Positions 46,424 through 59,583 of a DNA stretch of 64,000 nucleotides are shown here, piece after piece. Under the pieces are notes generated by a model. The model did not search any database and was not told where the DNA came from. It was given only the letters and a program-made list of their open reading frames with translations. The translations under genes and the position numbers were made by a program. Source of the stretch: Frankiales bacterium. Lineage in GTDB: Bacteria; Actinomycetota; Actinomycetes; Mycobacteriales; SCTD01. How positions within the stretch are numbered: the first letter of the stretch is position 1; every line of letters starts with the position of its first letter. The DNA is taken from assembly GCA_025465145.1 (NCBI GenBank), contig JAODNS010000167.1, forward strand, positions 2,621-66,620, given 5' to 3'.

Positions 46424-47563
46424 TTACCCGATGCCCCAGAGGGCCAGGTACTTGCTCTGGTAGTCGGCGCCATCACCGGCGCCGGTGAACGCCTCGCCCT
46501 TGGCGGGAAGCGTTACCTTGTCGAGCAGCTTGATGGGGAGGTTCTCGGCGGCGAGCGGCTGCTTGTTGAGCAGTCGGATGGCCTGGTCGACGCCGGCCCA
46601 GCCGAGCCATGCCTCAGGGGTGGCGGCATCGGCAACCAGCAGCTTGCCCTCTCGGATGTAGTTCAAGGCGTCGCTGGTCCCGAGCTGGGAGTACATGCGC
46701 TGGGTGAGGCGAGCGTTGATCATGTTGGGAGCGACCACGGTAACGATCGGGTCGAACGGCAGGTACACCGTGTTGATCTCCGGGTTGGACTGCAGCGCCG
46801 TCACCACGCTCTTGGAGACCGACGTGCCGATCTCGGCTGCGGTGAACTTGATGTCCTTGACCACCTTGCACTTGGTGCACTTGGCCACGGTGGCGAGCAT
46901 CGATGCGGTGATGGCCTTGGCGTAGCCAAACTCCTGGTTGTTCATGTTCAGGAGCTTGAGATCGCCCCCGGCGTCGACGACCATCCTGGCGCCAAGCGCC
47001 TCACCCACAGCCTTCGCATCGGGCGTGACGTCGGCGTCGTAGCCGTTAGTCGGGTCCACCGGGTTGTTCTCGATCAGGCTGATCAGCAGAGTGCCCTGCG
47101 CCTTCGCCGCCTTGATGGCGTCGCCGACCAGGCTTGCGTTGATGCCGGTAGCCAGGATGGCGTCCGGCTTGTCGACCAGGAGCGACTTCATGCCGCCGTT
47201 GTACTTGCTGGGCTCGTCAACCACGACGGTCTTCTGCGTCCAGCCGAGCTTCTTCACTGCAGCCTGAATCGCCTCCGTGGGCAGGCGGCAGCCCTCGAGC
47301 GCAAAGCTGCAGCTGAGGATGCCGACCTTCTTCCCGGTCGGGGCCTTGGCCGCCTCCGTAGGGCCGTTCCAAGCCACCGGGGCGGTGTACTTCTGGACGA
47401 GATCCTGGAACTCCGCCAGGTCGCCGCCGGCAGCCGCCGAGGCGCCTGCCGACGCGGCGTCGGTCGAGGGCGCGGCGGTGTCCCCGGCGTCCTTGCTGGA
47501 GGCACACGCGCTGGTGGCGAGCGCCAGGAACGCCAGAGGGGCGGCCCACTTGAGACGGTTCAT
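46424..47563 (-). CDS. ABC transporter substrate-binding lipoprotein (periplasmic-binding-protein type I, RbsB-like)
   Basis: A 379-aa ORF with a strong SD (AGGAGGAAGC) before the ATG. The signal peptide MNRLKWAAPLAFLALATSAC carries a lipobox-like Cys. Confidence 0.85.
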   Translation of the reverse strand: MNRLKWAAPLAFLALATSACASSKDAGDTAAPSTDAASAGASAAAGGDLAEFQDLVQKYTAPVAWNGPTEAAKAPTGKKVGILSCSFALEGCRLPTEAIQAAVKKLGWTQKTVVVDEPSKYNGGMKSLLVDKPDAILATGINASLVGDAIKAAKAQGTLLISLIENNPVDPTNGYDADVTPDAKAVGEALGARMVVDAGGDLKLLNMNNQEFGYAKAITASMLATVAKCTKCKVVKDIKFTAAEIGTSVSKSVVTALQSNPEINTVYLPFDPIVTVVAPNMINARLTQRMYSQLGTSDALNYIREGKLLVADAATPEAWLGWAGVDQAIRLLNKQPLAAENLPIKLLDKVTLPAKGEAFTGAGDGADYQSKYLALWGIG

Positions 47564-47668
47564 GCTTCCTCCTGATCGTGACCAAGTCGGTCCGTCACGG
47601 GATGCTGGAACCGAAACATCTCCGCGTCGGGCGCAACTGTCTAGAGAAACATGTCATCTGTCAACAGT

Positions 47669-47676
47669 CGGACCAA
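47669..47676 (-). promoter_or_regulatory. TTGGTCCG motif, site 3 of 4, next to a TTGACA -35-like box upstream of the ABC operon
   Basis: The minus strand reads AATTTTGGTCCGACTGTTGACAGATGACATG. The motif ends 4 nt before TTGACA, about 100 nt upstream of the SBP ATG. Confidence 0.4.
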
Positions 47677-47680
47677 AATT

Positions 47681-47716
<36 letters not shown>

Positions 47717-48667
47717 ACCGCGCCGGAGTCGAGTCAGCCGGCGGCGCTTGAGGACGTCCGGCGGGAAGAGCCCCGCCATCAAGCGGAGGTCGCTCCACGC
47801 GTTCAGGGGCGCACACGGCGTCGAGGTCCGGCCCGAGGGCCGCGACGATGTCGCGCTCCTGGTCATCGGTATGCGTCTCGATGACGTCACGCGCCGCCGC
47901 GCCGCCGCGCCGGCTGCGGTCAGGCTGCCCCCGGCTCCCAGCCGCAGTCCTCGAGAGACCGGACTGCCCTGTACAGCACAGCCGGCTGCCAGGAACGGGT
48001 GGTGGAGTAGCTCGGGAGCGGGTGACCGAGCCACAGCTCGGTCACGACGTTCATCGCCGACGGGGTCGACGCCGGCGTCGCAGCCCGCGATGACATGACT
48101 GTCCCCCCGGTGCTCCTGTACCAGGTCGCACGCCCACCAGGGCCGATGAACGGCGTCCGCCGGCCGCGCCCGCCCCCGCAGCCGCGCGAACAGCGGCCGG
48201 CCGGTGGCATCGGCCCGCGCCGTCGCCTCGCAGAGGAGCTCAGCGACAGGGCCAAAGTCCTCGCCCTCCAGCACCAGGCCAGGCTGTGCCGCGTCGCCTC
48301 GTCGCGCGTGCGCACGACCAGGTCACGGGACGCCGCAGCGCGTGCCGCTTCGTACACCGACGCCAGCACCTCCGGGTCGAACCACGCGAAGGTGGCCGCC
48401 ACCACGGCGGGCGAGGGGTCGCCGAGGTAGGCAGCCCGCCCGGCGAGTAGGCGCCGAAGAAGTCGAGGCGCAGCCCGGCCCGCGCCGTACTGGTGTGCCG
48501 ACTCCAGACGGCGTGCACAGCGATGGGCTCGCACGCGTCGCGGAGCCGGCGCGCCGGGCTGGCCAGCCGGACCGCCTCAGGCGCCACCGCACGTCGGGAT
48601 CAGAGCCGTAGAAGGTGGCGATCGCCTCGTCGTAATCCATCTGCACTCCTTCGCGCTGCAGTGGCAG

Positions 48668-49543
48668 TCAGGCGAGCCGGGAGCGCTCCTCGTCTCTCAA
48701 GGAGATCTCGGCGACGTGCAGCCCGTCGTCGAACTGCCGCGACGGGTAGCGCTCCCACAGCTTGTTCTCGTGGAACGGGATGATCCTGGGGATGTCTCCG
48801 CCGACAAGCTGGAACATCTCCTCCATGGTGAGCAGGCACTTGGTGATGCTGCCTGAAGCCAGGCCGATGGGGATGAACTGGCCGTTCCCGTCGTGGCCCT
48901 CGAGGTTCTCGTAGGTGGTCACGTTGTCACCCGACAGCACGAAGCGCTCTGAGGTGGGCTGGTCGACGACGACGTACTGAGAGCCCAGGGTGTGGGTGTC
49001 GTGCGAGGGGTTGACCCGGATCCCGGGCAGGATCTGCGCGTCGCCGTCCAGCAACGTGAGCCGGCCCTCCCTCCAGCAGTCCAGCATCGTCAGGAGGTCG
49101 TCGGGGTCGCACGCGACCATCAGCCACTGCAGCCGCTGGGGCAGCGACCTGGTCCAGAGGAACTTGCGGACCTCGATCTCCTGGATGTACACGTGCGCGT
49201 TGGGAAAGGCGTCAACGTTGCCGGCGTGGTCGAAGTGGTTGTGCGTGAGGATGACCGTGTCGACGTCGGCCGGATCAACCCCGAGACGTCCGAGGACCAC
49301 CTCGGGAGGTTGCCATCCGGAGACGCCGTACTCGTCGGCCAGCACGCGGCCGAACTCCGCGTAGTTGTAGCCGGTGTCGACCATGACCGTGTGCTCGTCG
49401 TTCTTCAGCAACGCGTAGCAGAAGGGGAGGATCATCGTCCCCGAGTTGTGTCGGCCGTACAGCGCCCCGCTCACGGGGAACTCCAGCACGCGGGCGTACT
49501 CCGCGATCCAGATCGAGTAGCCGGCCCCAAGGGTGGAGGTCAC
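48668..49543 (-). CDS. MBL-fold metallo-hydrolase (N-acyl-homoserine-lactonase-like)
   Basis: A 291-aa ORF with the HxHxDH motif ILTHNHFDHAGN. A GTG start overlaps the upstream stop (GTGA). Confidence 0.8.
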   Translation of the reverse strand: MTSTLGAGYSIWIAEYARVLEFPVSGALYGRHNSGTMILPFCYALLKNDEHTVMVDTGYNYAEFGRVLADEYGVSGWQPPEVVLGRLGVDPADVDTVILTHNHFDHAGNVDAFPNAHVYIQEIEVRKFLWTRSLPQRLQWLMVACDPDDLLTMLDCWREGRLTLLDGDAQILPGIRVNPSHDTHTLGSQYVVVDQPTSERFVLSGDNVTTYENLEGHDGNGQFIPIGLASGSITKCLLTMEEMFQLVGGDIPRIIPFHENKLWERYPSRQFDDGLHVAEISLRDEERSRLA

Positions 49544-49986
49544 GCCTCACTTCTCCTCTGCGTCTCGAACGATGGGTGCGCATGCCTCTCCGAACGGCCG
49601 TGCGAGTGCTCGCCTCCGCACGAGGGGTACTCGAACGGCAGCACGCGCCACACCTGGCGCCGCAGCGAGCGATGTCGCTCCCGCACCCGGTCTAGCGCCT
49701 CGTCGGCGTCACCCCGACCCCGACGGACCAGGTCCACCGCCTGCACCAGCTCCTCCGCTGCGAGCGCCACCGAAGCAGTCGCCCGGCGGACCTCGTCACC
49801 GGGAGTTGCAGCCGCCACCGCGCAGGCGCTCCTGTCCCGGAGCAGCACGGCATCCTGGCCCAGCCCGTCGAGGTCGTCCTTGAAGATCAGGCCTGCCGCG
49901 AGGCCGAGAACGAGCTGCTTGTACGACGCGTACAACTCGGCCAGCTCTGCCTCGTGCCAAGGCCGGACGTGTGGCTGAACGGTCAC
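49540..49986 (-). CDS. hypothetical protein with a Cys/His-rich C-terminal tail
   Basis: A 148-aa ORF with a GTG start preceded by GAGGGGAA. It is translationally coupled to the MBL gene. The tail is PSCGGEHSHGRSERHAHP. I recognise no family. Confidence 0.5.
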   Translation of the reverse strand: MTVQPHVRPWHEAELAELYASYKQLVLGLAAGLIFKDDLDGLGQDAVLLRDRSACAVAAATPGDEVRRATASVALAAEELVQAVDLVRRGRGDADEALDRVRERHRSLRRQVWRVLPFEYPSCGGEHSHGRSERHAHPSFETQRRSEA

Positions 49987-50001
49987 GCGGCTTCCCCTCG
50001 C

Positions 50002-50811
50002 TCAGTGCATGGTGATGCCGACGCTGACATTGAGGTCTTCGCCGGTCACCGCAGCAGATCCTGCACCAGCGAGGAACACGATGGCATCAGCGACGTCATC
50101 CGGTTGGACGATTCGCCGCAGCGGCGACTCTTCGACGTACTCCGCCCGCCGCTCCTCGACGGTGCGACCTCCCTGCCTTGCCTGGCCGGCGAGCACCGCG
50201 TCGAGACGGGGCCCGTCGACGGGTCCGGGTGAGACCAGGTTGACGCGCAGGCCGTAGGGCCCGACCTCGGCGGCCAGCGTGCGGACGAGCCCGACGAGGG
50301 CCATCTTGCTCGTCGTGTACGGCGAGCGGTGGACGAGCGGACGCTTCCCGCTCATGGACCCGACCACCACAATGCTGCCGCTCCCCCGGTCGAGCATGTG
50401 CGGCACGAGCGCGCGGCAGGACAGGAAGACGCCCCGGACGTTAACGGCCTGGGTCTGCTCCCAGTCCTCGACGGCGACCTCCCACAGCGGCGCGGTCGGG
50501 CCTGCCACCCCGCTGTTGGCGACGAGCACGTCCACCTGCCCGAACGCGTCCAGAGCACGTACGGCCAGGCTCCGCGTGCTGTCGGCGTCGGTGACGTCGG
50601 TGCGGGCGACGCACGCCTCGCCCCCGCCGGCAGCGATCTCCGCCGCCACAGCGGCCAGCTCGCCCTCCGACCGGCCGGCGAGCACAAGCCGCGCTCCTTC
50701 GGCGGCGCAGCGCAGAGCCGTTGCGCGACCGATCCCCCGACCTGCACCGGTGACGACGACGACCCGGTCTGCGAGCGCGGCCCGGCGGACCGGCGCCGCG
50801 CTCACACTCAC
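50002..50811 (-). CDS. SDR-family oxidoreductase
   Basis: A GTG at 50811 overlaps the MaoC stop. Motifs are VVVVTGAGRGIGRA, NSG and YTTSKMAL (YxxxK). Confidence 0.85.
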   Translation of the reverse strand: MSVSAAPVRRAALADRVVVVTGAGRGIGRATALRCAAEGARLVLAGRSEGELAAVAAEIAAGGGEACVARTDVTDADSTRSLAVRALDAFGQVDVLVANSGVAGPTAPLWEVAVEDWEQTQAVNVRGVFLSCRALVPHMLDRGSGSIVVVGSMSGKRPLVHRSPYTTSKMALVGLVRTLAAEVGPYGLRVNLVSPGPVDGPRLDAVLAGQARQGGRTVEERRAEYVEESPLRRIVQPDDVADAIVFLAGAGSAAVTGEDLNVSVGITMH

Positions 50812-51269
50812 GCGCCGTAGGTCAGGTAGATGGCCTCGGCGACCAGCGCCGGCCGGTCGTGGTCGCGAACCTCCATCTGCACGGCCACCTTGTACTGCAG
50901 TCCGCCGTCCGGTCGCGGAGCGACGTGCATCAGCCTTCCGCTCAAGCGCACCTTCGAGCCGACGGGGACCGGGCTGGTGAACCGGGCCCGGTCGATCCCA
51001 TAGTTGGTCCCCCTGACCTGGTCGGTCACGATGAGGAGCTCGTCGAGCAGCCTCGGCAACAGCGACAGCGTGAGGTAGCCGTGCGCGATGGTGGTGCCGA
51101 AGGGCCCCTCCGCGGCCCGCGCGGGGTCGACGTGGATCCACTGGTGGTCCTCGGTCGCCTCGGCGAAGCCGTTGATGCGCTCCTGGTCGACCAGCAGCCA
51201 GTCGCTCGTGCCGAGCTCCGTCTCGCCGAGTTCCCGCAGCTGGTCGACCGTCACCTCTAGCCCGGGCAT
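50808..51269 (-). CDS. MaoC-family (R)-specific enoyl-CoA hydratase
   Basis: A 153-aa ORF. The sequence FAEATEDHQWIHVDPARAAEGPFGTTIAHG is the hydratase 2 motif. Confidence 0.85.
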   Translation of the reverse strand: MPGLEVTVDQLRELGETELGTSDWLLVDQERINGFAEATEDHQWIHVDPARAAEGPFGTTIAHGYLTLSLLPRLLDELLIVTDQVRGTNYGIDRARFTSPVPVGSKVRLSGRLMHVAPRPDGGLQYKVAVQMEVRDHDRPALVAEAIYLTYGA

Positions 51270-51314
51270 GCCCGTCTCCGTCCTGTCGTGGGGAAGCGCG
51301 TCCGTCTCGCCTGG

Positions 51315-51710
51315 TCAGAGCAAGCGGAACCTCGGCACCGAGAAGCCCGCCTCCTGCTCGATCTGCAGAACGACCGGCCGCTCGATGGCCAGCTCCTCGA
51401 GCGGCCCCAGCACGTTGGTGATCAGCCGCGCGCCCTCGTCCAGCTCGACGACGGCCACGTTGTAGGGCACCCGGTCGGCGAACGCTGGATGCGAGGCCTG
51501 GTGGTACACGACCCAGCTGATGAGCCGCCCCCGGCCCGAGGACGCTTGCCACGCGACGTCCTCCGACAGGCAGCGCGGGCACTCCTCCCGCGCCGGGAGC
51601 CAGACGTTCGAGCAGGCGCCGCACACCTGGTGCCGAAGCTCGCCCTCGGTCAGACCGGCCCAGTACGGCTCCGTCAGCGGGGTAACGGTGGGCAGCGGGA
51701 CCTCGCTCAT
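51315..51710 (-). CDS. DUF35-type Zn-ribbon/OB-fold protein (thiolase partner)
   Basis: A 131-aa ORF with a CxxC-x10-CxxC ribbon (CGACSNVWLPAREECPRC) followed by an OB-fold segment. An ATGA overlap couples it to the upstream thiolase. Confidence 0.8.
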   Translation of the reverse strand: MSEVPLPTVTPLTEPYWAGLTEGELRHQVCGACSNVWLPAREECPRCLSEDVAWQASSGRGRLISWVVYHQASHPAFADRVPYNVAVVELDEGARLITNVLGPLEELAIERPVVLQIEQEAGFSVPRFRLL

Positions 51711-52834
51711 GACGAGCCCAAGATCAGCGTCGAGTGCGTGTGCATGATCCCTCCTTGGTTCGACACGAGTGAGGTCGTCGCCCCTACCACCTGGTTGGAC
51801 GACGTGCCACGGATCTGCCGCACGCCCTCGGTCACGAGCTGCATGCCGGGCATGCCGCTCTCCGAGAGCAGACCGCCGCTGGTGTTGACAGGCAGGGCAC
51901 CGCCGATCTCGATGCGTCCGTCCTCGACGAACGGGCCGCCTTCGCCCTTCTTGCAGAAGCCGTAGTCCTCGAGGGTCATCAACACGGTGATGGTGAAGCA
52001 GTCGTAGAGCTGCGCGACCTGGATGTCCTTGGGCCCGACGCCCGCCATGGCGAAGGCCGTTGCCGCCGAGACGGCAGCTGCCGTGTCGGTGAGCCGGGGG
52101 CGCTGAGCGACCTCCCAGGACGTCTGCCCCTGACCGTAGCCGAGGATCGGCACGGGGGCGGGCACGCCGACGGCACGGGCGCGCACGGCGCTCATCAGCA
52201 CGACCGCCGCACCGCCGTCGGAGATCAGGCAGCAGTCGTCGCGGCGCAACGGGTCGACGACCTGTCGCGAGGCGGCGTAGTCCTGTGCGGAGAGCGGCTT
52301 GCGGAGCTGGGCGCCGGGGTTGTTGGCACCGTGCCTCCGGCACGCCTGCGCGACAGCCCCGAGGTGCTCCTGCTTCGTGCCGAACTCCTCCATGTGCCGT
52401 CGCGCGATCATCGCGTAGCTGGCGGGGGTACCGAACCAGCCGAACACCGCGTCGTCTCCCCACCCGCGTTCATAGGCCTGCCGGGTGCCGGTCCGCGGGT
52501 TGTCAGCGATGGTCACGAGCGCGACCTCGCACTGCCCCTGCTCGATGGCGGAGGCCGCGAACCCGATCATCGAAGCGCTCGCCGCCCCGCCCTGGTCCCA
52601 GACACCGCCGATGCGCGGCTGCAGCCCCATGGCCTCGGCCATCGTCTGCCCGTACATCGGCAGGTGACCCGACGTCGGGTACTTGACGAAGAGGGCGTCC
52701 ACCGCGTCCTTGTCGACGTTGGCGTCCTGTAGCGCCTTACAGCAGGCCTCCACGTTCAAGGAGGTCGGCGAGCGGTCCGGGTGCTTGCCCTGCGCTGTCT
52801 GGCCGATCCCGGCGATCACGACCTTGCCGCGCAT
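51707..52834 (-). CDS. SCP-x/nsLTP-type thiolase-fold protein
   Basis: The start MRGKVVIAGIGQTAQGK is at 52834. The ORF has a thiolase-like fold with the C-terminal NTSGGLLS. It is paired with a DUF35 gene, as in BbsAB- or DitF-type systems. Confidence 0.85.
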   Translation of the reverse strand: MRGKVVIAGIGQTAQGKHPDRSPTSLNVEACCKALQDANVDKDAVDALFVKYPTSGHLPMYGQTMAEAMGLQPRIGGVWDQGGAASASMIGFAASAIEQGQCEVALVTIADNPRTGTRQAYERGWGDDAVFGWFGTPASYAMIARRHMEEFGTKQEHLGAVAQACRRHGANNPGAQLRKPLSAQDYAASRQVVDPLRRDDCCLISDGGAAVVLMSAVRARAVGVPAPVPILGYGQGQTSWEVAQRPRLTDTAAAVSAATAFAMAGVGPKDIQVAQLYDCFTITVLMTLEDYGFCKKGEGGPFVEDGRIEIGGALPVNTSGGLLSESGMPGMQLVTEGVRQIRGTSSNQVVGATTSLVSNQGGIMHTHSTLILGSS

Positions 52835-54024
52835 CAGATCACTCCCTTGACGTGCAACTCGGCGATGGTGCCGGCGTCCAGTCCGAGCCACTCGCCGTAG
52901 ACCTGCTCGTTGTGCTGGCCGAGGGTGGGGCTCGGCACGAGCTGCGCGTAGTGGTCCCCGACGCGGATCGGGCTGTGCGGCATAACCAGCGGACCCTCCT
53001 GCGGATGGTCCATCTCGACGAGCATGCCGCGCTGCCGCAGGTGCGGATCGGCCACCACCTCGGCGATCTGTCGCACCGGGGCGCTCGGGACCCCGACCGT
53101 CTGGAGCTTCTGCACCAGCTCGGCCTTGGTGAACTGTCGCGTCCAGCTGCCGACCTGCGCATCGACCTCGTCGATGATGCGCACACGTGCCACCCGGTCC
53201 ACGTAGTCCGGGTGTTCGATGAGCTCCGGGCGGCCCATCAGGCCGGCCAGGGCGCGCCAGTGCCCCTCGCTCACGCAGATCAGAGCGATGTGGCCATCGC
53301 TCGCCGGGTAGACGTTGTACGGCGCCTCGGCCATCCCGGAGTGCCGGTTGCCGGTCCGCGTCGGGGCCTCGCCGGTGCTGCCGAAGTACAGACCTAGACT
53401 GGACATCAGGCTCGGGTAAACCGAGTCCAGCATGGCGGCCTCGACCGCGGTCCCCTTGCCTGTGCGCTCGCGCTGGTAGAGGCCGGCGGCAATGGCGCCG
53501 TACAGGTGGATGCCCCCCATGAAGTCGCTGACGGCCGGTCCGGCCTTGACCGGATCGCGGTCGGGGAAGCCCGTGACGGACATGATCCCGGACATCGCCT
53601 GGATGGTGATGTCCATGGCAGGCAGGTCGCGATAGGGCCCTGTGGACCCGTAGCCGGAGCCGGACGCGTAGACGAGTCGCGGGTTGATCTCGCTCAGGCG
53701 CTCGAAGCCGATTCCCAGCCGGTCCGTGACCCCGGGGCGGAAGTTCTCGACGAAGACGTCGGCCTTCTCAACCATCTTCTCCAGCAGGGCCACGCCCTCG
53801 GGCGCTTTGAGGTTCAGGGTCACCGCGCGCTTGTTGCTGTTGAGCATGGCGAACGGAGCACCCGCCCCCGCGACGCGTCCCCGGCCTCGCAGGTTCTCGC
53901 CCGTGAGGGGCTCGACCTTGATGACGTCGGCGCCGCCGAGCGCCAGCAGGAAGGTCGCGTACGACGCGTTGTAGATCTGGCCGAGGTCGACGACCGTCAC
54001 ACCTGCGAAAGGAGCCTCGTCCAT
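52834..54024 (-). CDS. family III CoA-transferase (CaiB/BaiF/Mcr family)
   Basis: A 396-aa ORF with GVTVVDLGQIYNASYATFLLALGGADVIKVEP, NKRAVTLNLK and AVSDFMGG (candidate catalytic Asp region). Confidence 0.85.
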   Translation of the reverse strand: MDEAPFAGVTVVDLGQIYNASYATFLLALGGADVIKVEPLTGENLRGRGRVAGAGAPFAMLNSNKRAVTLNLKAPEGVALLEKMVEKADVFVENFRPGVTDRLGIGFERLSEINPRLVYASGSGYGSTGPYRDLPAMDITIQAMSGIMSVTGFPDRDPVKAGPAVSDFMGGIHLYGAIAAGLYQRERTGKGTAVEAAMLDSVYPSLMSSLGLYFGSTGEAPTRTGNRHSGMAEAPYNVYPASDGHIALICVSEGHWRALAGLMGRPELIEHPDYVDRVARVRIIDEVDAQVGSWTRQFTKAELVQKLQTVGVPSAPVRQIAEVVADPHLRQRGMLVEMDHPQEGPLVMPHSPIRVGDHYAQLVPSPTLGQHNEQVYGEWLGLDAGTIAELHVKGVI

Positions 54025-54027
54025 CGG

Positions 54028-54804
54028 TCAGCTGCCCGTAAAGTTCGCGGAGCGGCGCTCCGCGAACGCGGCCGGCCCCTCTTTGGCGTCGTCGGTGAAG
54101 CTCAGCAGCCGGTTCAGCGCCTGCTCCAGCCGCAGCCCAGTGTTCCGGTCGACGTCGCGCGAACGCAGAGCCAGCTCCTTCGTCGCCTGGACGGCCAGCG
54201 GGGCGTTGGCGGAGATCTCCCTGGCCAGCTCGAAAGCAGCCGCCAGCAGCTCCTCCTTCGGCACCACCCGGTTGACAAGTCCCCACCGCGCGGCGGTCTC
54301 GGCGTCAATCCGCTTGCCGGTGAGGAGCATCTCCATCGCGATGGCGTGTGGAAGCTGCTCGAGGATGCGCTGCGTGCCCCCGTTACCCGGCACGACGCCA
54401 CGGGCCACCTCGCTGAGCCCGAACGTGGCGGTCGGGGTGGCGAGCCGGAGGTCAGTCGCGAGCAGCAGCGTCATGCCCCCACCCAGGCAGTAGCCGTTCA
54501 CAGCGGCGATGACCGGCTTCCAGACCTCCAGGCCGCGATTGAGAAGCTGGTCCTGCTGGGTGAGCCAGAACTGCGACATCTCCGGCGGCGCGTTGACGAA
54601 GCTCTTCAGATCGGCGCCGGTGCTGAAGGCACGGTCGCCGGCCCCGGTGATGACCGCGACCCGGATGTCGGCGTCATCGCGAACACGGCTCCACGCCGCG
54701 GACAGCTGCTGGTAGGCCTCGGCGTCCATGGCATTCATCCGCTCAGGGCGGTTCATCGTGATCAGGGCGACGCCCGTGTCGTCGACCTCCAGCTCGACGG
54801 TCAA
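54028..54804 (-). CDS. enoyl-CoA hydratase/isomerase (crotonase)
   Basis: A 258-aa ORF with VALITMNRPERMNAM, VITGAGDRAFSTGADL and AAVNGYCLGGG. Confidence 0.9.
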   Translation of the reverse strand: MTVELEVDDTGVALITMNRPERMNAMDAEAYQQLSAAWSRVRDDADIRVAVITGAGDRAFSTGADLKSFVNAPPEMSQFWLTQQDQLLNRGLEVWKPVIAAVNGYCLGGGMTLLLATDLRLATPTATFGLSEVARGVVPGNGGTQRILEQLPHAIAMEMLLTGKRIDAETAARWGLVNRVVPKEELLAAAFELAREISANAPLAVQATKELALRSRDVDRNTGLRLEQALNRLLSFTDDAKEGPAAFAERRSANFTGS

Positions 54805-55976
54805 CGCGAACTGCCCTTGCCGGACAACAGCTGGCGGGCGACCACCATGCGGTGCACCTCGGAGGGACCTTCACCGATCCGCTTGATCCGCATCTCGCGG
54901 TACCAGCGCTCCAGCGGGAGCTCCTTGGCGACACCCATGCCGCCGAGCACCTGGATGCAGCGATCCACGACCCGGCCCGCCGTCTCCGTGGCGGACACCT
55001 TTGCGATGGACGCTTCGAGCTTGAAGTCCTGGCCCATGTCAGCTTTCCACGCCGCGTTGTAGACCAGCCCCCGCGATGCGCGGATCTCGATCTCGGAGTC
55101 CGCGACCATCCACTGGATGGCTTGCTTGTCAGCGAGCTTGCTGCCGAAGACCTCGCGGTTCTTGGCGTAGTCGATGGCCAGCTCCAGTGCGGCGCTGGCG
55201 ATGCCGAGCGTTGCCGCGGCGTACGGCACCCGGCCGTGGACGAGCCACTGCTGGGCCAGGGCGAAACCCCTGCCCTCGTCCCCTATGAGGTTCTCGACCG
55301 GCACACGGCAGTCCTCGAAGGAGAGCTCGCAGGGGTACCAGGAGCGGATGACCGGGATGAGCTTCATGCTCAGCCCGGGGGTGTCCTTCTCGACGATGAA
55401 GCAGCTGACCCCGTTGCGGCCCGCGCTGGTCCGTGCGAACACGACCCCCCAGTCGGAGTAGTTGGCAGCAGAGATCCAGACCTTCGTCCCGTTCAGCACG
55501 TAGTGGTCGCCGTCCCGCACCGCGGTCGTCTGGATGCTGCGCGCCGGGTCCGATCCACCAGACGGCTCACTGATCGCGACGAACGTCTTGCCCCCCGAAG
55601 CGATGGTCGGTACGGCGTACTTCTGGATCTGCTCCTCGGTGCCGCGGTAGACCACGTTGGGCGGGTCCCAGCCGAAGGCGCCTCCCGCGGGGACGTAGGC
55701 CCCCATCCGGCATTGCGACGCCTCCTCCGCGACGATCACCTGCTCGAGCAGGCTCATCTCGCTGCCGCCGTACTGCGCGGGCGACGCGATGCACCAGATC
55801 CCGGCTTGGCGGGCCTTCTTGCTGGCAGCTGCCAGGACGTCCGGCGGCAGCTTGAACGCGTCGAACGGAAGCGTCTCCTCGACTGGGCGGATCTCCTTCT
55901 GCACGAAGTCCCGTGCCACCCGCTGCAAGCCCTTGAGCTCGTCGGACATCTCCCAGCCACCGCGGTCGGTCATCAT
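54801..55976 (-). CDS. acyl-CoA dehydrogenase
   Basis: A 391-aa ORF with FVAISEPSGGSDPA, LNGTKVWISAA, FGSKLADKQAIQWMVADSEIEI and RIGEGPSEVHR. Confidence 0.9.
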   Translation of the reverse strand: MMTDRGGWEMSDELKGLQRVARDFVQKEIRPVEETLPFDAFKLPPDVLAAASKKARQAGIWCIASPAQYGGSEMSLLEQVIVAEEASQCRMGAYVPAGGAFGWDPPNVVYRGTEEQIQKYAVPTIASGGKTFVAISEPSGGSDPARSIQTTAVRDGDHYVLNGTKVWISAANYSDWGVVFARTSAGRNGVSCFIVEKDTPGLSMKLIPVIRSWYPCELSFEDCRVPVENLIGDEGRGFALAQQWLVHGRVPYAAATLGIASAALELAIDYAKNREVFGSKLADKQAIQWMVADSEIEIRASRGLVYNAAWKADMGQDFKLEASIAKVSATETAGRVVDRCIQVLGGMGVAKELPLERWYREMRIKRIGEGPSEVHRMVVARQLLSGKGSSR

Positions 55977-56047
55977 GGCGCCTCCTCATAGGCCCGGCCG
56001 GCACCTGGGCAGGGCATCGGGCGGTCCTCAGGCCGCCCGGTGCCGGG

Positions 56048-56076
56048 ACACTAAGGCCCACCGCCCCGAGAGTCAA
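56048..56076 (-). promoter_or_regulatory. sigma-70/HrdB-like promoter candidate TTGACT-17 nt-TAGTGT for the ACAD-led operon
   Basis: On the minus strand the -35 box TTGACT occupies 56071-56076 and the -10 box TAGTGT occupies 56048-56053, with a 17-nt spacer. The promoter lies about 70 nt upstream of the ATG at 55976. Confidence 0.45.
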
Positions 56077-56080
56077 TAAT

Positions 56081-56088
56081 TGGACCAA
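56081..56088 (-). promoter_or_regulatory. TTGGTCCA motif, site 4 of 4, directly upstream of the -35 box
   Basis: The minus strand reads CTTCTTTGGTCCAATTATTGACT. The motif ends 4 nt before TTGACT. Confidence 0.4.
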
Positions 56089-56125
56089 AGAAGGCTGACG
56101 TCGACGGCTGTCAGGCTGCTTCTTG

Positions 56126-56635
56126 TCAGAACGGCGCGTCGTAGCCGCCCAGGAGCCGGCTGAAGCGCCACACGCCGTCCGGGTCCTTGACCAGCTCGAG
56201 CCGGTAGGGGCCGACCGTCTCCGTCGACACGGACGCGGCGGCAGCTGCTGTGAGCATGAGGTAGGCGTGCGCGGTGGCGATACTCGCGCCGAGATCGTCA
56301 ATCACTACGTTGGTAAAGATGTGCCGGCGCTGGTCGGCCTGCTGTGACCAGAAGCCCATGAGCCACTCGACGATGGTGGCGCGGCCCACGAAGGGACCCA
56401 CCTGATCGCGACCCATGATCAGCCCCTCCCAGCTGCCGTCCTCGGTGAAGCAGTCCTCGAGTCCCTGCTGGTCGCGCTCGTCGTAGGACCAGCCGTAGCG
56501 GTAGATGCGCTCCGCGATGAGCAGGCGGTCGATGGCGGCGCCGGCCTGTGCCTCGGCAGCCAGTCGCTGAACACGGGTGTGGCCGGTCTGGCGAGCCCAG
56601 GCAGGCACCGGTCGTAGGTCGCTGGCATCGCTCAT
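56126..56635 (-). CDS. NTF2/SnoaL-like protein
   Basis: The ATG at 56635 is preceded by GAGGAGA. The product has IDRLLIAERIYRYGWSYDERDQQGLEDCFTEDGSW ... GVWRFSRLLGGYDAPF. Confidence 0.7.
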   Translation of the reverse strand: MSDASDLRPVPAWARQTGHTRVQRLAAEAQAGAAIDRLLIAERIYRYGWSYDERDQQGLEDCFTEDGSWEGLIMGRDQVGPFVGRATIVEWLMGFWSQQADQRRHIFTNVVIDDLGASIATAHAYLMLTAAAAASVSTETVGPYRLELVKDPDGVWRFSRLLGGYDAPF

Positions 56636-56684
56636 ATCTGTCTCCTCGTCCGGGGTTGGCAGAACATACGGCGGCTGCCGCGAT

Positions 56685-57479
56685 TCACGTCCCGAGAAAC
56701 GTCGGTCGTGACCGCTGCGCGAAAGCGGCTCTCGCCGCCAAGTGGTCGTCGGTGGAGTAGCAGACTGCCTGGCCAAGCGCCTCCAGGGTTGCCATCTCCG
56801 ACCAGGTCGACTGCAACGACTGGTCCAGCAGTCGCTTCGCCAGCCCCAGCGCGACCGTGGGTCCGGCTGCCAGTTGCGTGGCCAGCTGCTGCGACTCCGC
56901 CCGCACATCGTCCGCAGGCACCACCCGGTTGATCAGACGCATCTCCAGTCCCTCCTTGGCCGTGAAGGTGCGGCCGGTCAGCACCAGGTCCTTCACGAGG
57001 CTGCTGGGAAGGCGTCGGGGCAGGAAGTAGAGCGCGCCGCAGTCCGGCAGCAGGCCGATGCGCATGAAGGCGCACGACATCACGGCGGTATCGGCCGCCA
57101 CGATCAGGTCGCAGGCGAGAGCGAGGCTGAGCCCGGCCCCGTGGGCGTGCCCGTTGACGGCGGCAACCGTCGGCTTCTCCATCTCGGCCAGCGGTTGGAA
57201 GACGTCGCGCAGGAGGACCTGCAGCCTTGCCCGGCTGTGCGTCGGCGTGTCGTTGAGCTCCATCTCGACGACGTCGCCACCGGCGCAGAAGGCTGCTCCA
57301 GCCCCGGTGACGACGACGCACCTCACGGTGGGGTCGTCGGCGAGCGAGGCGAACGTCTCGGCGAGCGACCGCTTGAGATCCATGTTCAGCGCGTTACGCG
57401 CGTCCGGGCGGTTGAGTGTGACCGTGGCAACGCCAGAGTCGCGCTGCACGAGCAGGTGCGCGTACTCCTGGTCGGTCAC
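56685..57479 (-). CDS. enoyl-CoA hydratase/isomerase (crotonase)
   Basis: A GTG at 57479 overlaps the upstream stop. Motifs are VATVTLNRPDARNAL, VVTGAGAAFCAGGDV and AAVNGHAHGAG. Confidence 0.85.
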   Translation of the reverse strand: MTDQEYAHLLVQRDSGVATVTLNRPDARNALNMDLKRSLAETFASLADDPTVRCVVVTGAGAAFCAGGDVVEMELNDTPTHSRARLQVLLRDVFQPLAEMEKPTVAAVNGHAHGAGLSLALACDLIVAADTAVMSCAFMRIGLLPDCGALYFLPRRLPSSLVKDLVLTGRTFTAKEGLEMRLINRVVPADDVRAESQQLATQLAAGPTVALGLAKRLLDQSLQSTWSEMATLEALGQAVCYSTDDHLAARAAFAQRSRPTFLGT

Positions 57480-58420
57480 TGCTGGTCCGGCGACGGCACC
57501 GGCTCGAAGTAGTCGATGTCGTTGAGGGTCCCCCGGCAGTCGGCCGGGTCCTTCCACACCGCCCGCACCGGCATGCCGATGGACAGCCGCTCAGCTGCTG
57601 TGGCCACATCGAAGCCGGCGACCGTGTGGATGAGCCTCGTCGCCGAACCGTCCAGCACGATCTCGGCGTAGATGTACGGCGGCGTGCGGGTCTGCCCGAC
57701 GAACTCCAGGTGAATCACCGAGAACGCCTGCAGCACGCCGTGGTCACTGACGTCCACGTGCTGTCCGGTGCGGACGAAGCACGCGTCGCAGAACTCGCGA
57801 GGCGGGACCAGCACGTTTCGGCATGTGGGGCACAGCGAACCGAGGATGCGACGGCTTGACGCCAGCTCGTCGAAGAGTCGCCCGTAGTGCGGGCCGTAGG
57901 AGTGCTGGTACTCCAGCTCGAGCTGGTGCGGCACCTGCGCGATCAAGCCGACCTCGCCCGCAGGGTGCGCTGTGCCCGGAGGCTGGTCGTCCTCGTCCAG
58001 GACGAAGCAGTCGAGGTCGAGCACCGACTGCGTGGCGGTGGCCGCCCACACGGCACGGACCCGCGTCCCCACGGTGACAGCGCCCTTCGCGAGGTCCAGG
58101 CGGTGGAGCAGGTCGGCATCCGCTCCGTCGAGCCGGATCAGCGCAAGCACGCCTCTGTCCGTGCGTGTCAGCGCGGTCACGGTGCCGGTCTCCGGGAGCT
58201 GCACGAACTCGTCAGGCGCCTCGCCGCAACGCGAGCAGTAGTCGCTAGGCGGTACGACGGTCCGCGAGCAGACTTCGCACCGGGAGCCCAGGATGCGGTG
58301 GTTGCCGAGCTCGAACAGGAACGACCCGGCAGCCGGGCCCGTGGTCAAGGTGTAGGGCATGGAGAGCGTCGTCGTGAGGACCTGTGCTTCGTCGATGCTG
58401 GTCACCAACCCGTCCGTCAT
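57476..58420 (-). CDS. tandem double DUF35 (two Zn-ribbon/OB-fold units) protein
   Basis: The start MTDGLVTSI is at 58420. There are two ribbons, CEVCSRTVVPPSDYCSRC and CPTCRNVLVPPREFCDAC, each followed by an OB-fold-like segment. Confidence 0.8.
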   Translation of the reverse strand: MTDGLVTSIDEAQVLTTTLSMPYTLTTGPAAGSFLFELGNHRILGSRCEVCSRTVVPPSDYCSRCGEAPDEFVQLPETGTVTALTRTDRGVLALIRLDGADADLLHRLDLAKGAVTVGTRVRAVWAATATQSVLDLDCFVLDEDDQPPGTAHPAGEVGLIAQVPHQLELEYQHSYGPHYGRLFDELASSRRILGSLCPTCRNVLVPPREFCDACFVRTGQHVDVSDHGVLQAFSVIHLEFVGQTRTPPYIYAEIVLDGSATRLIHTVAGFDVATAAERLSIGMPVRAVWKDPADCRGTLNDIDYFEPVPSPDQQ

Positions 58421-58427
58421 CTTCGGC

Positions 58428-59582: not shown

Positions 59583-59583
59583 G

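What the first reader, a model, noticed from the sequence alone, without database searches (positions are those of the whole stretch)
50002..55976. Complete bbs-like beta-oxidation module with a family III CoA-transferase and a DUF35-thiolase pair
Downstream of a good promoter candidate, the genes run ACAD, crotonase, family III CoA-transferase, SCP-x-type thiolase, DUF35 Zn-ribbon/OB protein, MaoC hydratase and SDR. Most are joined by start/stop overlaps.

This is the same enzyme set as the benzylsuccinate beta-oxidation (bbs) operon:
- CoA-transferase BbsEF;
- ACAD BbsG;
- hydratase BbsH;
- SDR BbsCD;
- thiolase BbsB with the DUF35 protein BbsA.

The bbs logic activates a dicarboxylic or bulky acid by CoA transfer rather than by ligation. 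The presence of both a crotonase and a MaoC hydratase suggests that both stereochemistries are handled, or a branched substrate. An MBL hydrolase and a Cys/His-tailed unknown protein are coupled at the 3' end.
Basis: partly seen in the sequence, partly recalled or inferred. Interest (0 to 1): 0.55.

Follow-up and report, generated by a model that had tools for sequence, protein, structure and literature searches.

The report
Aldolase-type acid-shortening cassette, not thiolase
The nine genes are real and conserved, but the "thiolase" lacks its catalytic cysteine and has the active site of steroid side-chain aldolases. The operon therefore probably shortens an unknown, lactone-derived acid by aldol cleavage, not by bbs-type beta-oxidation.

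Summary
Nine minus-strand genes (48668-55976) run ACAD, crotonase, family III CoA-transferase, SCP2-type thiolase-fold protein, DUF35, MaoC, SDR, a 148-aa unknown and an MBL hydrolase. Five junctions overlap. A conserved TTGACT-N17-TAGTGT promoter candidate lies upstream.

The bbs reading is only partly supported:
- **No thiolase nucleophile.** The thiolase-fold protein has Ala at that position (78 of 80 homologues; never Cys). It has Y-D-C-F where thiolases have H-D-C-F. That is the Tyr/Cys dyad of the bile-acid aldolase CtSal (PMC12329534).
- **Bbs models fail.** The BbsA and BbsB equivalog models score far below their cut-offs.
- **Single genes.** There is one CoA-transferase gene and one SDR gene.
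- **No glycyl-radical enzyme** was found in the MAG.

ACAD-crotonase-CoA-transferase-aldolase-DUF35 is a cassette found in Actinomycetota, Proteobacteria and Chloroflexi. It usually sits beside a ring-opening hydrolase (MBL, PTE, hydantoinase A/B, cyclase) or a Baeyer-Villiger-type monooxygenase.

My best reading has five steps: lactone or lactam opening, CoA transfer, desaturation, hydration and retro-aldol cleavage. The substrate is unknown.

The 148-aa protein is a four-helix bundle predicted to bind the MBL. An 18-nt box links this promoter to the neighbouring ABC operon.

This scan has noted similar Cys-less thiolase/DUF35 cassettes on other DNA.

The parts
56048..56089 (-). Promoter candidate (TTGACT 56076-56071, 17-nt spacer, TAGTGT 56053-56048) inside an 18-nt box TTTGGTC-NN-A-N-T-N-TTGAC (56089-56072).
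   Evidence: Read from the sequence. Both hexamers are invariant in L090 although the spacer diverges. The 18-nt box occurs only twice in the 64 kb, against 0.00 expected. The second copy lies upstream of the ABC operon at 47660-47677. Both copies are conserved in L090. The strict sigma-70 scan did not call it.
54801..55976 (-). Acyl-CoA dehydrogenase, 391 aa, of homomeric short/medium-chain type.
   Evidence: Pfam Acyl-CoA_dh_N/M/1. The best solved relatives are 1ukw, the Bcd 5ol2 and SCAD. The catalytic Glu in GEGPSE is kept in 20 of 20 cassette orthologues. An AGGAGG motif lies 4 nt before the ATG.
54028..54804 (-). Crotonase-fold enzyme, 258 aa, with one catalytic Glu only.
   Evidence: ECH_1 at 218 bits. 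The nearest solved structure is EchA19. The first catalytic Glu (rat ECH E144; GGTE in EchA19) is Thr here (GGGMT), and Thr in 21 of 24 cassette orthologues. The second Glu is kept in 24 of 24.
52834..54024 (-). Family III CoA-transferase, 396 aa.
   Evidence: CoA_transf_3 at 389 bits. PDB ranking: YfdE > 4ed9 > SUGCT > Frc > BbsF > Rv3272 > MCR. The Asp in the S-D-F motif is kept in 15 of 15 orthologues.
51707..52834 (-). Cys-less SCP2-type thiolase-fold protein, 375 aa; a predicted 3-hydroxyacyl-CoA retro-aldolase ('Ald').
   Evidence: Thiolase_C_1. Residue-by-residue alignments to BbsB, 7yvy, Ltp2, Sal and 4u4e. The nucleophile position is Ala in 78 of 80 homologues. In the YDC[FY] motif, Tyr is kept in 80 of 80, Asp in 80 of 80 and Cys in 78 of 80. 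The catalytic roles of that Tyr and Cys in CtSal are taken from PMC12329534.
51315..51710 (-). Stand-alone DUF35 protein (Cys4 zinc ribbon plus OB fold), 131 aa; presumed partner of Ald.
   Evidence: Pfam zf-ChsH2 + OB_ChsH2_C. The best PDB matches are the DUF35 chains of 9myr and 6ok1. The four Cys are kept in 68 of 68 homologues. It is paired with Ald in at least 57 of 73 loci and overlaps Ald by ATGA.
50808..51269 (-). Single hot-dog MaoC hydratase, 153 aa, Rv0130-like.
   Evidence: MaoC_dehydratas. Rv0130 (2c2i) scores 142 bits. It is present in the actinobacterial versions of the cassette (L090, L094, L098; rearranged in L095). It was not found in the proteobacterial loci with this query.
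50002..50811 (-). Classical SDR, 267-269 aa.
   Evidence: adh_short and adh_short_C2. The PDB matches are generic and include a (3R)-hydroxyacyl-CoA dehydrogenase, 2et6, at 145 bits.
49540..49986 (-). 148-aa protein of no known family: a four-helix bundle with a disordered Cys/His tail, predicted to bind the MBL.
   Evidence: No Pfam or NCBIfam hit. Only 6 homologues were found. They share the invariant motif VLPFEYPSC-x3-HSHG-x4(or x2)-H. The model has pLDDT 82.5 and four helices. Foldseek gave no PDB match. The complex score with the MBL is 0.85 against a best control of 0.00.
48668..49543 (-). MBL-fold hydrolase of the lactonase family, 291 aa.
   Evidence: Lactamase_B. The metal ligands of HxHxDH, plus a further His, Asp and His, are invariant in 19 sequences. 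The nearest solved structures are 8x78, 4-pyridoxolactonase and AiiA. Source databases name its homologues 'N-acyl homoserine lactonase family'.

Best explanation
This is a catabolic operon that removes a two-carbon (acetyl-CoA) unit from an imported organic acid by aldol cleavage, not by thiolysis.

**Proposed order**
1. The MBL hydrolase, with its 148-aa four-helix partner, opens a lactone to a hydroxy-acid (inferred).
2. The family III CoA-transferase makes the CoA thioester from succinyl- or acetyl-CoA (inferred; the catalytic Asp is present).
3. The short-chain-type ACAD makes the 2-enoyl-CoA (catalytic Glu present).
4. The one-Glu crotonase hydrates it to a 3-hydroxyacyl-CoA. In the actinobacterial version the Rv0130-like MaoC may do this as well.
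5. The Cys-less thiolase-fold protein, bound to the DUF35 protein, cleaves the C2-C3 bond by retro-aldol chemistry. The Tyr of its Y-D-C-F motif acts as base and the Cys as acid. The products are acetyl-CoA and an aldehyde or ketone.
6. The SDR handles a hydroxyl or carbonyl of the substrate or product.

**Shown and inferred**
- Shown: the gene set, the residues and the conservation.
- Inferred: the chemistry of every step.
- Unknown: the substrate. A branched, or otherwise non-oxidisable, beta-hydroxy intermediate derived from a lactone is the favoured class.

The five-gene core ACAD-crotonase-CoA-transferase-aldolase-DUF35 is a patchily distributed cassette that is plugged into different ring-opening front ends in different phyla.
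For: **The thiolase-fold protein has an aldolase-type active site**
- It has Ala where BbsB and 7yvy have the nucleophile Cys.
- It has Tyr where they have the HDxF His, and it has no GHP His.
- Across 80 homologues of 41-71% identity, the nucleophile position is Ala in 78 and Ser in 2. The YDC[FY] motif keeps Tyr in 80 of 80, Asp in 80 of 80 and Cys in 78 of 80.
- In CtSal, Tyr302 and Cys304 of YDCY are the catalytic pair, and Sal has Gly at the nucleophile (PMC12329534).
- The best solved relatives are 4u4e (217 bits), Ltp2 6ok1 (194) and Sal 9myr (162), ahead of BbsB (136). The DUF35 protein best matches the Sal and Ltp2 partner chains.

**The core is conserved across phyla**
- ACAD, crotonase, CoA-transferase, Ald and DUF35 lie together, mostly in the window's order, at 48-71% identity in Burkholderiales, Alphaproteobacteria and other MAGs (L001-L017, apart from L009, L010 and L015). 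Chloroflexi loci carry them in a different arrangement.
- The seven-gene version is found in Nocardioides psychrotolerans and in a JGI contig.
- The nine-gene version is found in a Mycobacteriales MAG and in ENA assemblies.

**No true thiolase lies inside the island**
- The genome's only three Thiolase_C_1 proteins are in this window.
- The other two lack even the YDCF motif.

**Ring-opening or lactone-forming enzymes recur beside the cassette**

| Neighbouring enzyme | Where |
|---|---|
| MBL | window, L090 |
| PTE | L094, L095, L098 |
| Hydantoinase A/B | L001-L008, L017, L099 (L005 shows HydB only) |
| FMO-like BVMO plus cyclase | L096, L097 |
| Alpha/beta hydrolase | L018 |

**The catalytic residues of the other enzymes are conserved**.
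Against: - No enzyme of this clade has been assayed.
- TbSLP, which has the same YDCF motif, has no established function (PMC12329534).
- CtSal's Gln347 and Gln352, proposed to stabilise the thiolate, are Leu and Glu here.
- Ltp2's second catalytic Tyr344 is Gly here.
- The cassette crotonase lacks one of the two hydratase glutamates. It could therefore be an isomerase, or a hydratase-lyase in its own right.
- An SDR is adjacent in many loci, and five canonical thiolases exist elsewhere in the genome. A keto intermediate cleaved in trans is therefore not excluded.
- The lactone/lactam idea rests on guilt by association across about 20 loci, several of them closely related. Hydantoinase-family proteins also include ketone carboxylases.
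- Co-transcription rests only on gene overlaps and on a few contigs from an RNA library.
Confidence: 0.55

Rival explanations
1. A bbs-like thiolytic beta-oxidation. CoA transfer, ACAD, hydratase and SDR make a 3-ketoacyl-CoA, which the thiolase/DUF35 pair cleaves with CoA.
For: All enzyme families of the bbs operon are represented. BbsB and BbsF are detectable homologues. The CoA-transferase is not a racemase-type enzyme. Chloroflexi relatives of the cassette have two adjacent CoA-transferase genes, as in BbsEF.
Against: The nucleophile Cys is absent here and in all 80 homologues. The BbsA and BbsB equivalog scores are far below their cut-offs. There is one CoA-transferase gene and one SDR gene. 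No PFL-like glycyl-radical enzyme was found in the MAG. This SDR and the MaoC are not part of the conserved core.
Confidence: 0.07
2. A sterol or bile-acid side-chain module: an orthologue of the Sal-Shy or Ltp2-ChsH1/H2 systems acting on a steroid acyl-CoA.
For: The Ald, DUF35 and MaoC genes together reproduce all three domains of Sal-Shy as separate genes. The crotonase's nearest solved relative is EchA19. An Ltp3/Ltp4-like cluster and an ACAD pair lie directly upstream.
Against: No KshA_C domain, and no IpdE2 above its cut-off, was found in the 90%-complete MAG. The ACAD is of homomeric short-chain type, not a ChsE-like pair. Activation is by a dicarboxylate-type CoA-transferase rather than a steroid-CoA ligase. 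The same cassette lies beside hydantoinases, Liv-type ABC transporters and TctC receptors in Polaromonas- and Comamonadaceae-type MAGs. Ald is shorter than Sal and Ltp2, and scores higher against 4u4e.
Confidence: 0.08
3. Ald-DUF35 is not a lyase on a hydrated enoyl-CoA. Either it is a scaffold or non-catalytic subunit, or it catalyses another thiolase-superfamily reaction. Examples are decarboxylation of a malonyl-type CoA, as weakly seen in TbSLP, or C-acyl transfer, as in PhlABC. In that case the crotonase (Thr/Glu, an HCHL-like pattern) or a thiolase acting in trans performs the C-C cleavage.
For: TbSLP, with the same YDCF motif, shows only feeble malonyl-CoA decarboxylase activity. The cassette crotonase has the one-Glu pattern. 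DUF35 proteins act as scaffolds in the archaeal thiolase/HMG-CoA synthase complex and in PhlABC (PDB names). Canonical thiolases exist elsewhere in the genome.
Against: Strict conservation of Tyr and Cys over 80 sequences of 41-71% identity argues for catalysis at that site. The fixed linkage to ACAD and crotonase fits a 3-hydroxyacyl-CoA substrate.
Confidence: 0.2

Closest known systems
CtSal-CtShy(DUF35), bile-acid C5 side-chain aldolase of Comamonas testosteroni (PDB 9myr; PMC12329534)
   Same: It has a thiolase fold without the nucleophile Cys. It has a Y-D-C-[YF] motif with the catalytic Tyr and Cys. It has a DUF35 zinc-ribbon/OB partner. A MaoC hydratase is present in the same gene set.
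   Different: - Here DUF35 is a stand-alone protein with a Cys4 ribbon. In Shy it has a Cys3His ribbon and is fused to MaoC.
- Sal's Gln347 and Gln352 are Leu and Glu here.
- This protein is about 50 residues shorter.
- The context is not steroid catabolism: it is linked to a family III CoA-transferase, a short-chain-type ACAD and a crotonase.
- The sequence score to Sal (162 bits) is lower than to 4u4e (217) or Ltp2 (194).
TcLtp2-ChsH2(DUF35), steroid C3 side-chain aldolase of Thermomonospora curvata (PDB 6ok1)
   Same: It is a Cys-less thiolase-fold aldolase with a DUF35 partner. The Tyr294 equivalent is conserved here. It is actinobacterial.
   Different: Ltp2 has YDHF and a second catalytic Tyr344. 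Here the motif is YDCF, and Gly stands at the Tyr344 position.
Benzylsuccinate beta-oxidation BbsA-H (structures 7pxp and 9fn0)
   Same: It uses the same enzyme families: family III CoA-transferase, ACAD, crotonase, SDR and an SCP2-type thiolase fold with DUF35. It also activates its substrate by CoA transfer.
   Different: BbsB is a true thiolase with the catalytic Cys and His residues. BbsEF and BbsCD are each two-gene heteromers. The equivalog models are not met. No fumarate-adding enzyme was found in this genome. The MaoC, the MBL and the 148-aa protein have no Bbs counterpart.
PDB 4u4e, a structural-genomics 'thiolase' of unknown function
   Same: It is the best solved match (217 bits) and is also not Cys at the nucleophile position (Ser).
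   Different: It has no assigned function, so it gives no functional information.
Leucine/HMG-CoA branch: methylglutaconyl-CoA hydratase plus HMG-CoA lyase, and SUGCT
   Same: The logic is the same: CoA transfer onto a dicarboxylate (SUGCT-like), a crotonase-fold hydration giving a beta-hydroxyacyl-CoA, and a lyase releasing acetyl-CoA plus a carbonyl compound.
   Different: The lyase here has a thiolase fold, not a TIM-barrel HMGL fold. This is an analogy of mechanism only. No membership is claimed.

Membership tests
Bbs benzylsuccinate beta-oxidation operon | BbsB thiolase with a nucleophilic Cys and catalytic His residues | tested here: not met
   Ala stands at the Cys position, Tyr at the HDxF His, and there is no GHP His. 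NCBIfam BbsB scores 141.5 bits against a cut-off of 750.
Bbs benzylsuccinate beta-oxidation operon | BbsA DUF35 subunit at equivalog level | tested here: not met
   NF053627 scores 22.8 bits against a cut-off of 250.
Bbs benzylsuccinate beta-oxidation operon | Two-gene heteromeric CoA-transferase (BbsE and BbsF) and two-gene SDR (BbsC and BbsD) | tested here: not met
   There is one CoA_transf_3 gene and one SDR gene in the operon. BbsF scores 167 bits and BbsE 107, against 249 for YfdE.
Bbs benzylsuccinate beta-oxidation operon | Genomic association with a fumarate-adding glycyl-radical enzyme | tested here: not met
   PF02901 was not found in G000 (89.9% complete, so absence is not proven).
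Sal/SLP-type thiolase-fold retro-aldolases | SCP2-type thiolase fold lacking the nucleophilic Cys | tested here: met
   Thiolase_C_1 at 173 bits. The position is Ala in 78 and Ser in 2 of 80 homologues.
Sal/SLP-type thiolase-fold retro-aldolases | Y-D-C-[YF] motif with catalytic Tyr and Cys | tested here: met
   The window protein has L-Y-D-C-F. Tyr is kept in 80 of 80, Asp in 80 of 80 and Cys in 78 of 80; the last position is Phe in 52 and Tyr in 28. The catalytic roles are taken from PMC12329534.
Sal/SLP-type thiolase-fold retro-aldolases | Gln347 and Gln352, proposed to stabilise the Cys thiolate | tested here: not met
   Leu and Glu stand at the aligned positions. Across the family these positions are Leu, Gln or Met, and Glu, Ser or Gln.
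Sal/SLP-type thiolase-fold retro-aldolases | Complex with a DUF35 domain | tested here: inconclusive
   The adjacent DUF35 gene overlaps by ATGA and is paired with Ald in at least 57 of 73 loci. It best matches the DUF35 chains of 9myr and 6ok1. Binding was not modelled or measured.
Sal/SLP-type thiolase-fold retro-aldolases | Retro-aldol cleavage of a 3-hydroxyacyl-CoA | not testable with these tools
   This needs an enzyme assay.
Ltp2-type steroid aldolases | YDHF motif plus a second catalytic Tyr (Tyr344) | tested here: not met
   The motif is YDCF, and Gly stands at the Tyr344 position.
Steroid side-chain catabolism (context) | Steroid nucleus degradation genes in the same genome | tested here: not met
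   No KshA_C domain was found, and no IpdE2 match rose above its cut-off. The MAG is about 90% complete.
Alpha-methylacyl-CoA racemase branch of family III | Closest similarity to MCR or Far | tested here: not met
   MCR scores 127 bits and Far 110. YfdE scores 249, SUGCT 214 and Frc 200.

The most novel reading that the evidence does not exclude
The cassette may define a general, non-steroid 'aldolytic beta-oxidation'. In this route, lactones or lactams from alicyclic or terpenoid ketones are opened and CoA-activated by transfer. They are then shortened by a Sal-type thiolase-fold aldolase instead of a dehydrogenase/thiolase pair.

In this actinobacterial lineage the front end would be a heteromeric lactonase: an MBL enzyme carrying a previously unknown four-helix, Cys/His-tailed subunit at its active-site entrance. 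The whole unit would be co-regulated with a sugar-type importer and a TcuA/PrpD/PrpB-like module through a shared 18-nt promoter box.
Probability: 0.3. Interest if true: 0.72.

Novelty: new variant of a known kind. Interest (0 to 1): 0.55.

Why it matters
Thiolase-fold aldolases with DUF35 partners have been characterised only in steroid side-chain breakdown (Ltp2 and Sal).

This operon belongs to a large clade, routinely annotated as 'acetyl-CoA acetyltransferase'. At least 2,612 clusters match at E<=1e-80. The clade keeps the Sal-type Tyr/Cys dyad and is hard-wired to a CoA-transferase, an ACAD and a crotonase in soil and freshwater bacteria of several phyla.

If the reading is right, several things follow:
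- A common annotation is wrong.
- A widespread way of removing acetyl-CoA without a keto intermediate exists. It would suit branched or tertiary beta-hydroxy acids that cannot be oxidised.
- New C-C bond-forming or C-C bond-breaking biocatalysts become available for small CoA esters.

Culturable carriers make this testable: Nocardioides psychrotolerans, Rhodococcus sp. NCIMB 12038, Pseudonocardia halophobica and a Nocardia strain.

Tried and rejected
- **Promoter scan.** The strict sigma-70 scan found no promoter in 47500-57000. The candidate rests on reading the sequence and on its conservation.
- **148-aa protein.** Pfam and NCBIfam gave nothing. The protein atlas scored at most 0.77. Foldseek against the PDB found no match at E<=0.001, only generic helical bundles.
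- **PDB 8x78.** A paper search for this entry, the MBL's best solved relative, returned nothing.
- **Literature.** Searches combining DUF35, CoA-transferase, ACAD, hydratase and aldolase, or thiolase-like and retro-aldol, returned only steroid, Bbs, Phl and archaeal systems.
- **Close relatives.**
  - In the 40 nearest species genomes, the best Ald match is only 42-43% identical, and the MBL has no match at E<=1e-20.
  - I first read this as transfer from Proteobacteria. I dropped that reading when homologues of 73-92% identity turned up in other Actinomycetota.
  - Only a patchy distribution is claimed.
- **RNA.**
  - Only five short contigs from one soil RNA library lie on the region.
  - The stretches without cover, and runs X5 and X6 with small shares of words, say nothing about expression, operon ends or habitat.
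- **Phylogeny.** Placement rests on bit scores and motifs.
- **Ald-DUF35 complex.** Not sent for complex prediction.
- **Acetone-carboxylase reading.** I considered this for the proteobacterial hydantoinase A/B genes. I consider it less likely, because no third small gene lies between hydantoinase B and the ACAD in L001 or L099, and because, from memory, the subunits are shorter than those of acetone carboxylases. It is not excluded.

Full report
**1. What is there**

The window is about 70% G+C. It lies on a contig of at least 66 kb in a soil MAG of 3.04 Mb in 332 contigs, 89.9% complete.

Nine genes lie head to tail on the minus strand between 48668 and 55976:

| Gene | Coordinates |
|---|---|
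| ACAD | 54801-55976 |
| crotonase | 54028-54804 |
| family III CoA-transferase | 52834-54024 |
| SCP2-type thiolase-fold protein | 51707-52834 |
| DUF35 | 51315-51710 |
| MaoC | 50808-51269 |
| SDR | 50002-50811 |
| 148-aa protein with no family | 49540-49986 |
| MBL hydrolase | 48668-49543 |

Five of the eight junctions are start/stop overlaps. The other three are gaps of 3, 45 and 15 nt.

An independent gene caller on other soil assemblies that carry the identical protein gives the same gene set and lengths. The array is therefore not an assembly artefact.

**2. Promoter and transcription**

The 149-nt spacer upstream of the ACAD contains TTGACT-N17-TAGTGT, and AGGAGG lies 4 nt before the ATG.
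- The strict consensus scan does not call this promoter.
- Both hexamers are nevertheless invariant in the orthologous spacer of a Mycobacteriales MAG (L090). The sequence around them has diverged and carries a 35-nt indel.

The -35 hexamer is embedded in an 18-nt box, TTTGGTC-NN-A-N-T-N-TTGAC.
- The box occurs exactly twice in the 64 kb, against 0.00 expected.
- The second copy is at 47660-47677. It lies in front of the sugar-type ABC importer and the TcuA/PrpD/PrpB-like operon downstream.
- Both copies are conserved at the homologous sites in L090.
- The two operons therefore very probably share a regulator or a sigma factor.

One soil RNA library holds five short contigs, at least 99% identical to the window. 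Three of them are informative:
- one covers the ACAD/crotonase junction;
- one lies within the ACAD gene;
- one spans the whole SnoaL-ACAD spacer.

This is only a weak hint of expression and of read-through from upstream, because DNA carry-over cannot be excluded.

**3. The 'thiolase' is not a thiolase**

Residue-by-residue alignments to solved structures give three results:
- Where BbsB (7pxp) and the acetyl-CoA acetyltransferase 7yvy have the nucleophilic Cys, this protein has Ala.
- Where they have the His of H-D-x-F, it has Tyr, giving L-Y-D-C-F.
- The G-H-P histidine is missing.

I aligned 80 homologues of 41-71% identity from many phyla:
- The nucleophile position is Ala in 78 and Ser in 2. 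It is never Cys.
- Tyr and Asp of the motif are invariant. Cys is present in 78 of 80. The fourth residue is Phe in 52 and Tyr in 28.

Rolfe et al. 2025 (PMC12329534) showed the following:
- In the bile-acid aldolase CtSal, the Tyr and Cys of Y-D-C-Y are the catalytic base and acid for retro-aldol cleavage.
- Sal has Gly at the thiolase nucleophile position.
- The trypanosomal SLP has Y-D-C-F.
- SCP2 thiolases have H-D-C-F.
- Ltp2 has Y-D-H-F plus a second Tyr.

The window protein therefore carries the Sal/SLP catalytic set. It does not have the Ltp2 set, because Tyr344 is Gly here. It does not have the thiolase set either. Two secondary Sal residues, Gln347 and Gln352, are not kept.

Its best solved relatives are 4u4e (function unknown), Ltp2 and Sal, ahead of BbsB. 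The DUF35 protein best matches the DUF35 chains that bind Sal and Ltp2.

The two other thiolase-fold genes just upstream lack even the YDCF motif. These three are the only Thiolase_C_1 proteins in the genome.

**4. The other enzymes**

- **CoA-transferase.** It keeps the catalytic Asp. It scores higher against dicarboxylate-type enzymes (YfdE, SUGCT, Frc) than against BbsF or the racemases.
- **ACAD.** It keeps the catalytic Glu. It resembles homomeric short/medium-chain enzymes.
- **Crotonase.**
  - Its nearest solved relative is EchA19.
  - It has Thr where EchA19 and other hydratases have the first catalytic Glu.
  - The Thr is kept in 21 of 24 cassette orthologues, and the second Glu is invariant.
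  - From my own knowledge of the family, a single Glu is the pattern of enoyl-CoA isomerases and of hydroxycinnamoyl-CoA hydratase-lyase. The hydration step is therefore inferred, not secure.
- **MaoC.** It resembles Rv0130.
- **SDR.** It is generic.
- **MBL.** It has all the metal ligands. It belongs to the lactonase branch, with 4-pyridoxolactonase and AiiA among its nearest solved structures. Source databases call its homologues AHL lactonases.

**5. Conservation and context**

- **Core.**
  - ACAD, crotonase, CoA-transferase, Ald and DUF35 lie together, mostly in the window's order, at 48-71% identity in Burkholderiales, Comamonadaceae and Polaromonas MAGs.
  - The same holds for Acetobacteraceae, Stellaceae and other alphaproteobacterial MAGs.
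  - Chloroflexi loci carry them in a different arrangement, with two CoA-transferase genes.
- **Seven-gene version.** The core plus MaoC and SDR occurs in Nocardioides psychrotolerans, next to a TrwC relaxase, and in a JGI contig.
- **Rearranged versions.** These occur in Rhodococcus sp. NCIMB 12038, Pseudonocardia halophobica and a Nocardia strain.
- **Whole island.**
  - The nine-gene operon is conserved in a Mycobacteriales MAG and in two ENA assemblies.
  - The flanking Ltp3/4-like module and the ABC/TcuA-like module are conserved with it.
  - In L090, protein identity to the window is 62-98%.
- **Near relatives.** In the 40 nearest species genomes searched, no orthologue was found. The best Ald match is 43% identical, and the MBL has no match. 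The distribution is patchy.
- **Family size.** At least 2,612 clusters match at E<=1e-80. Most are named 'acetyl-CoA acetyltransferase' or 'thiolase family protein'.

The cassette's neighbours recur by function rather than by homology:

| Neighbour | Loci |
|---|---|
| MBL lactonase | window, L090 |
| Phosphotriesterase-family (PTE) gene | three actinobacterial loci |
| Hydantoinase A+B with a GntR regulator | about ten proteobacterial loci |
| FMO-like Baeyer-Villiger-type monooxygenase plus a cyclase-family hydrolase | Pseudonocardia, Nocardia |
| Alpha/beta hydrolase | Oceanicola |
| Luciferase-like monooxygenase and cyclase-family gene | upstream in the window |

This is the basis for proposing that the substrate enters as a lactone, or as a lactam in the proteobacterial versions. 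It is guilt by association, and many of these loci are related to one another.

**6. Mechanism proposed**

1. Ring opening (inferred).
2. CoA transfer (inferred).
3. Alpha,beta-desaturation (inferred).
4. Hydration (inferred).
5. Retro-aldol cleavage by Ald-DUF35 to acetyl-CoA plus an aldehyde or ketone. This is inferred from the residue pattern.
6. An SDR step on a hydroxyl or carbonyl.

Aldol cleavage is the expected solution when the beta-hydroxy group cannot be oxidised, for example at a tertiary carbon. The route does not need a dehydrogenase/thiolase pair.

I put about 0.9 on 'not a thiolase', about 0.55-0.6 on 'retro-aldolase acting after ACAD and hydratase', and about 0.4 on 'lactone or lactam-derived substrate'.

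**7. Rivals**

- **bbs-like thiolysis.** It fails on the nucleophile, on the equivalog cut-offs, on the single-gene CoA-transferase and SDR, and on the lack of any PFL-like enzyme.
- **Steroid side-chain role.** This is unlikely. No KshA or IpdE2 was found. The ACAD is of short-chain type. Activation is by a CoA-transferase rather than a ligase. The proteobacterial contexts are not steroid-related.
- **Scaffold or different chemistry for Ald-DUF35.** Cleavage would then be done by the unusual crotonase, or by one of the five canonical thiolases elsewhere in the genome. This remains a real alternative, at about 0.2.

**8. The 3' pair**

The 148-aa protein is a real, fast-evolving gene. It is 62% identical in L090, where its neighbours are 78-98% identical.
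- Only six homologues were found. They share an invariant C-terminal motif containing Cys and three His.
- It models as a four-helix bundle with a disordered tail (pLDDT 82.5).
- It has no structural or sequence relative of known function.

A complex prediction with the MBL gave these figures:
- Score 0.85, against a best control of 0.00.
- That mark was reached by 58 of 80 solved complexes and by 2 of 110 mismatched pairs. The counts hold only roughly, because I used my own alignments.
- The three runs agree in at least 62% of their contacts.
- The partner's pLDDT is at least 73.
- The interface uses helices 1 and 4 of the small protein. On the MBL it uses residues 63-72, 104 and 125-164. Residue 104 lies inside the HxHxDH motif.

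The model supports binding but does not show it. It suggests an accessory subunit at the active-site entrance.

**9. Known or new**

The families are all known, and the aldolase principle is known from steroid catabolism. In the papers searched I found no described pathway that uses this cassette.

Earlier AI notes of this scan describe similar Cys-less thiolase/DUF35 cassettes on other DNA, and both flanking modules of this island. They are not independent evidence.

I class this as a new variant of a known kind.

Noticed in passing
window 47660-47677 (-) and 56072-56089 (-); L090 3837-3854 and 12373-12390: An 18-nt box, TTTGGTC-NN-A-N-T-N-TTGAC, which includes the -35 hexamer, occurs only twice in the window (0.00 expected). 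One copy lies in front of this operon and one in front of the sugar-type ABC/TcuA-like operon. Both are conserved in a related MAG, which suggests common regulation of the two operons.
   Followed up: yes
window 47654-48534 (-): The HTH_67 regulator gene between the two operons is split into two frames. Consecutive parts of PF21863 fall on two overlapping ORFs. In L090 and in the ENA assemblies it is intact (301 aa), in either orientation. The window copy is either a pseudogene or carries an assembly frameshift.
   Followed up: partly
window 56685-60726 (-): The two upstream thiolase-fold genes lack both the thiolase residues and the YDCF dyad (VQEPFT and VTASSS at the motif). They are followed by a tandem-DUF35 protein, a crotonase and a SnoaL_4 protein. 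This Ltp3/Ltp4-like set travels with the operon in L090 and in the ENA contigs.
   Followed up: partly
L099 16170-19128; L001, L003, L006, L007: In several proteobacterial loci the cassette and a Liv-type ABC transporter are followed by AtuA. In L099, AtuA_ferredoxin, a crotonase and an APH-like kinase gene follow as well. AtuA belongs to acyclic terpene utilisation, which hints at a terpenoid or branched-chain substrate there.
   Followed up: no
L094 830-3463: In Nocardioides psychrotolerans, the same seven-gene cassette lies about 3.4 kb from a TrwC-type relaxase gene. This fits with the cassette being carried on a mobile element.
   Followed up: no
L020, L022, L023 (Chloroflexi/Dehalococcoidia MAGs): These relatives of the cassette carry two adjacent family III CoA-transferase paralogues (31-34% identical to the window enzyme). 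The arrangement is formally closer to BbsEF than the window's single gene is.
   Followed up: no
window 41982-42845 (-) versus L003-L008, L011, L015, L099: The SDR that follows the cassette in many proteobacterial loci resembles the SDR of the neighbouring TcuA/PrpB-like operon (36-38% identity) more than the operon's own SDR (29-32%). L011 also has a PEP_mutase/ICL-family gene 3.5 kb downstream. These are further links between the two modules.
   Followed up: partly
window 35356-36576 (+): A canonical thiolase (Thiolase_N, 233 bits) lies about 14 kb from the operon on the opposite strand. It is one of five in the MAG.
   Followed up: no
window 47681-47716: A (GTCGCC)n hexamer repeat directly abuts the 18-nt box of the ABC operon promoter. 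It reads GGCGAC repeats on the minus strand.
   Followed up: no
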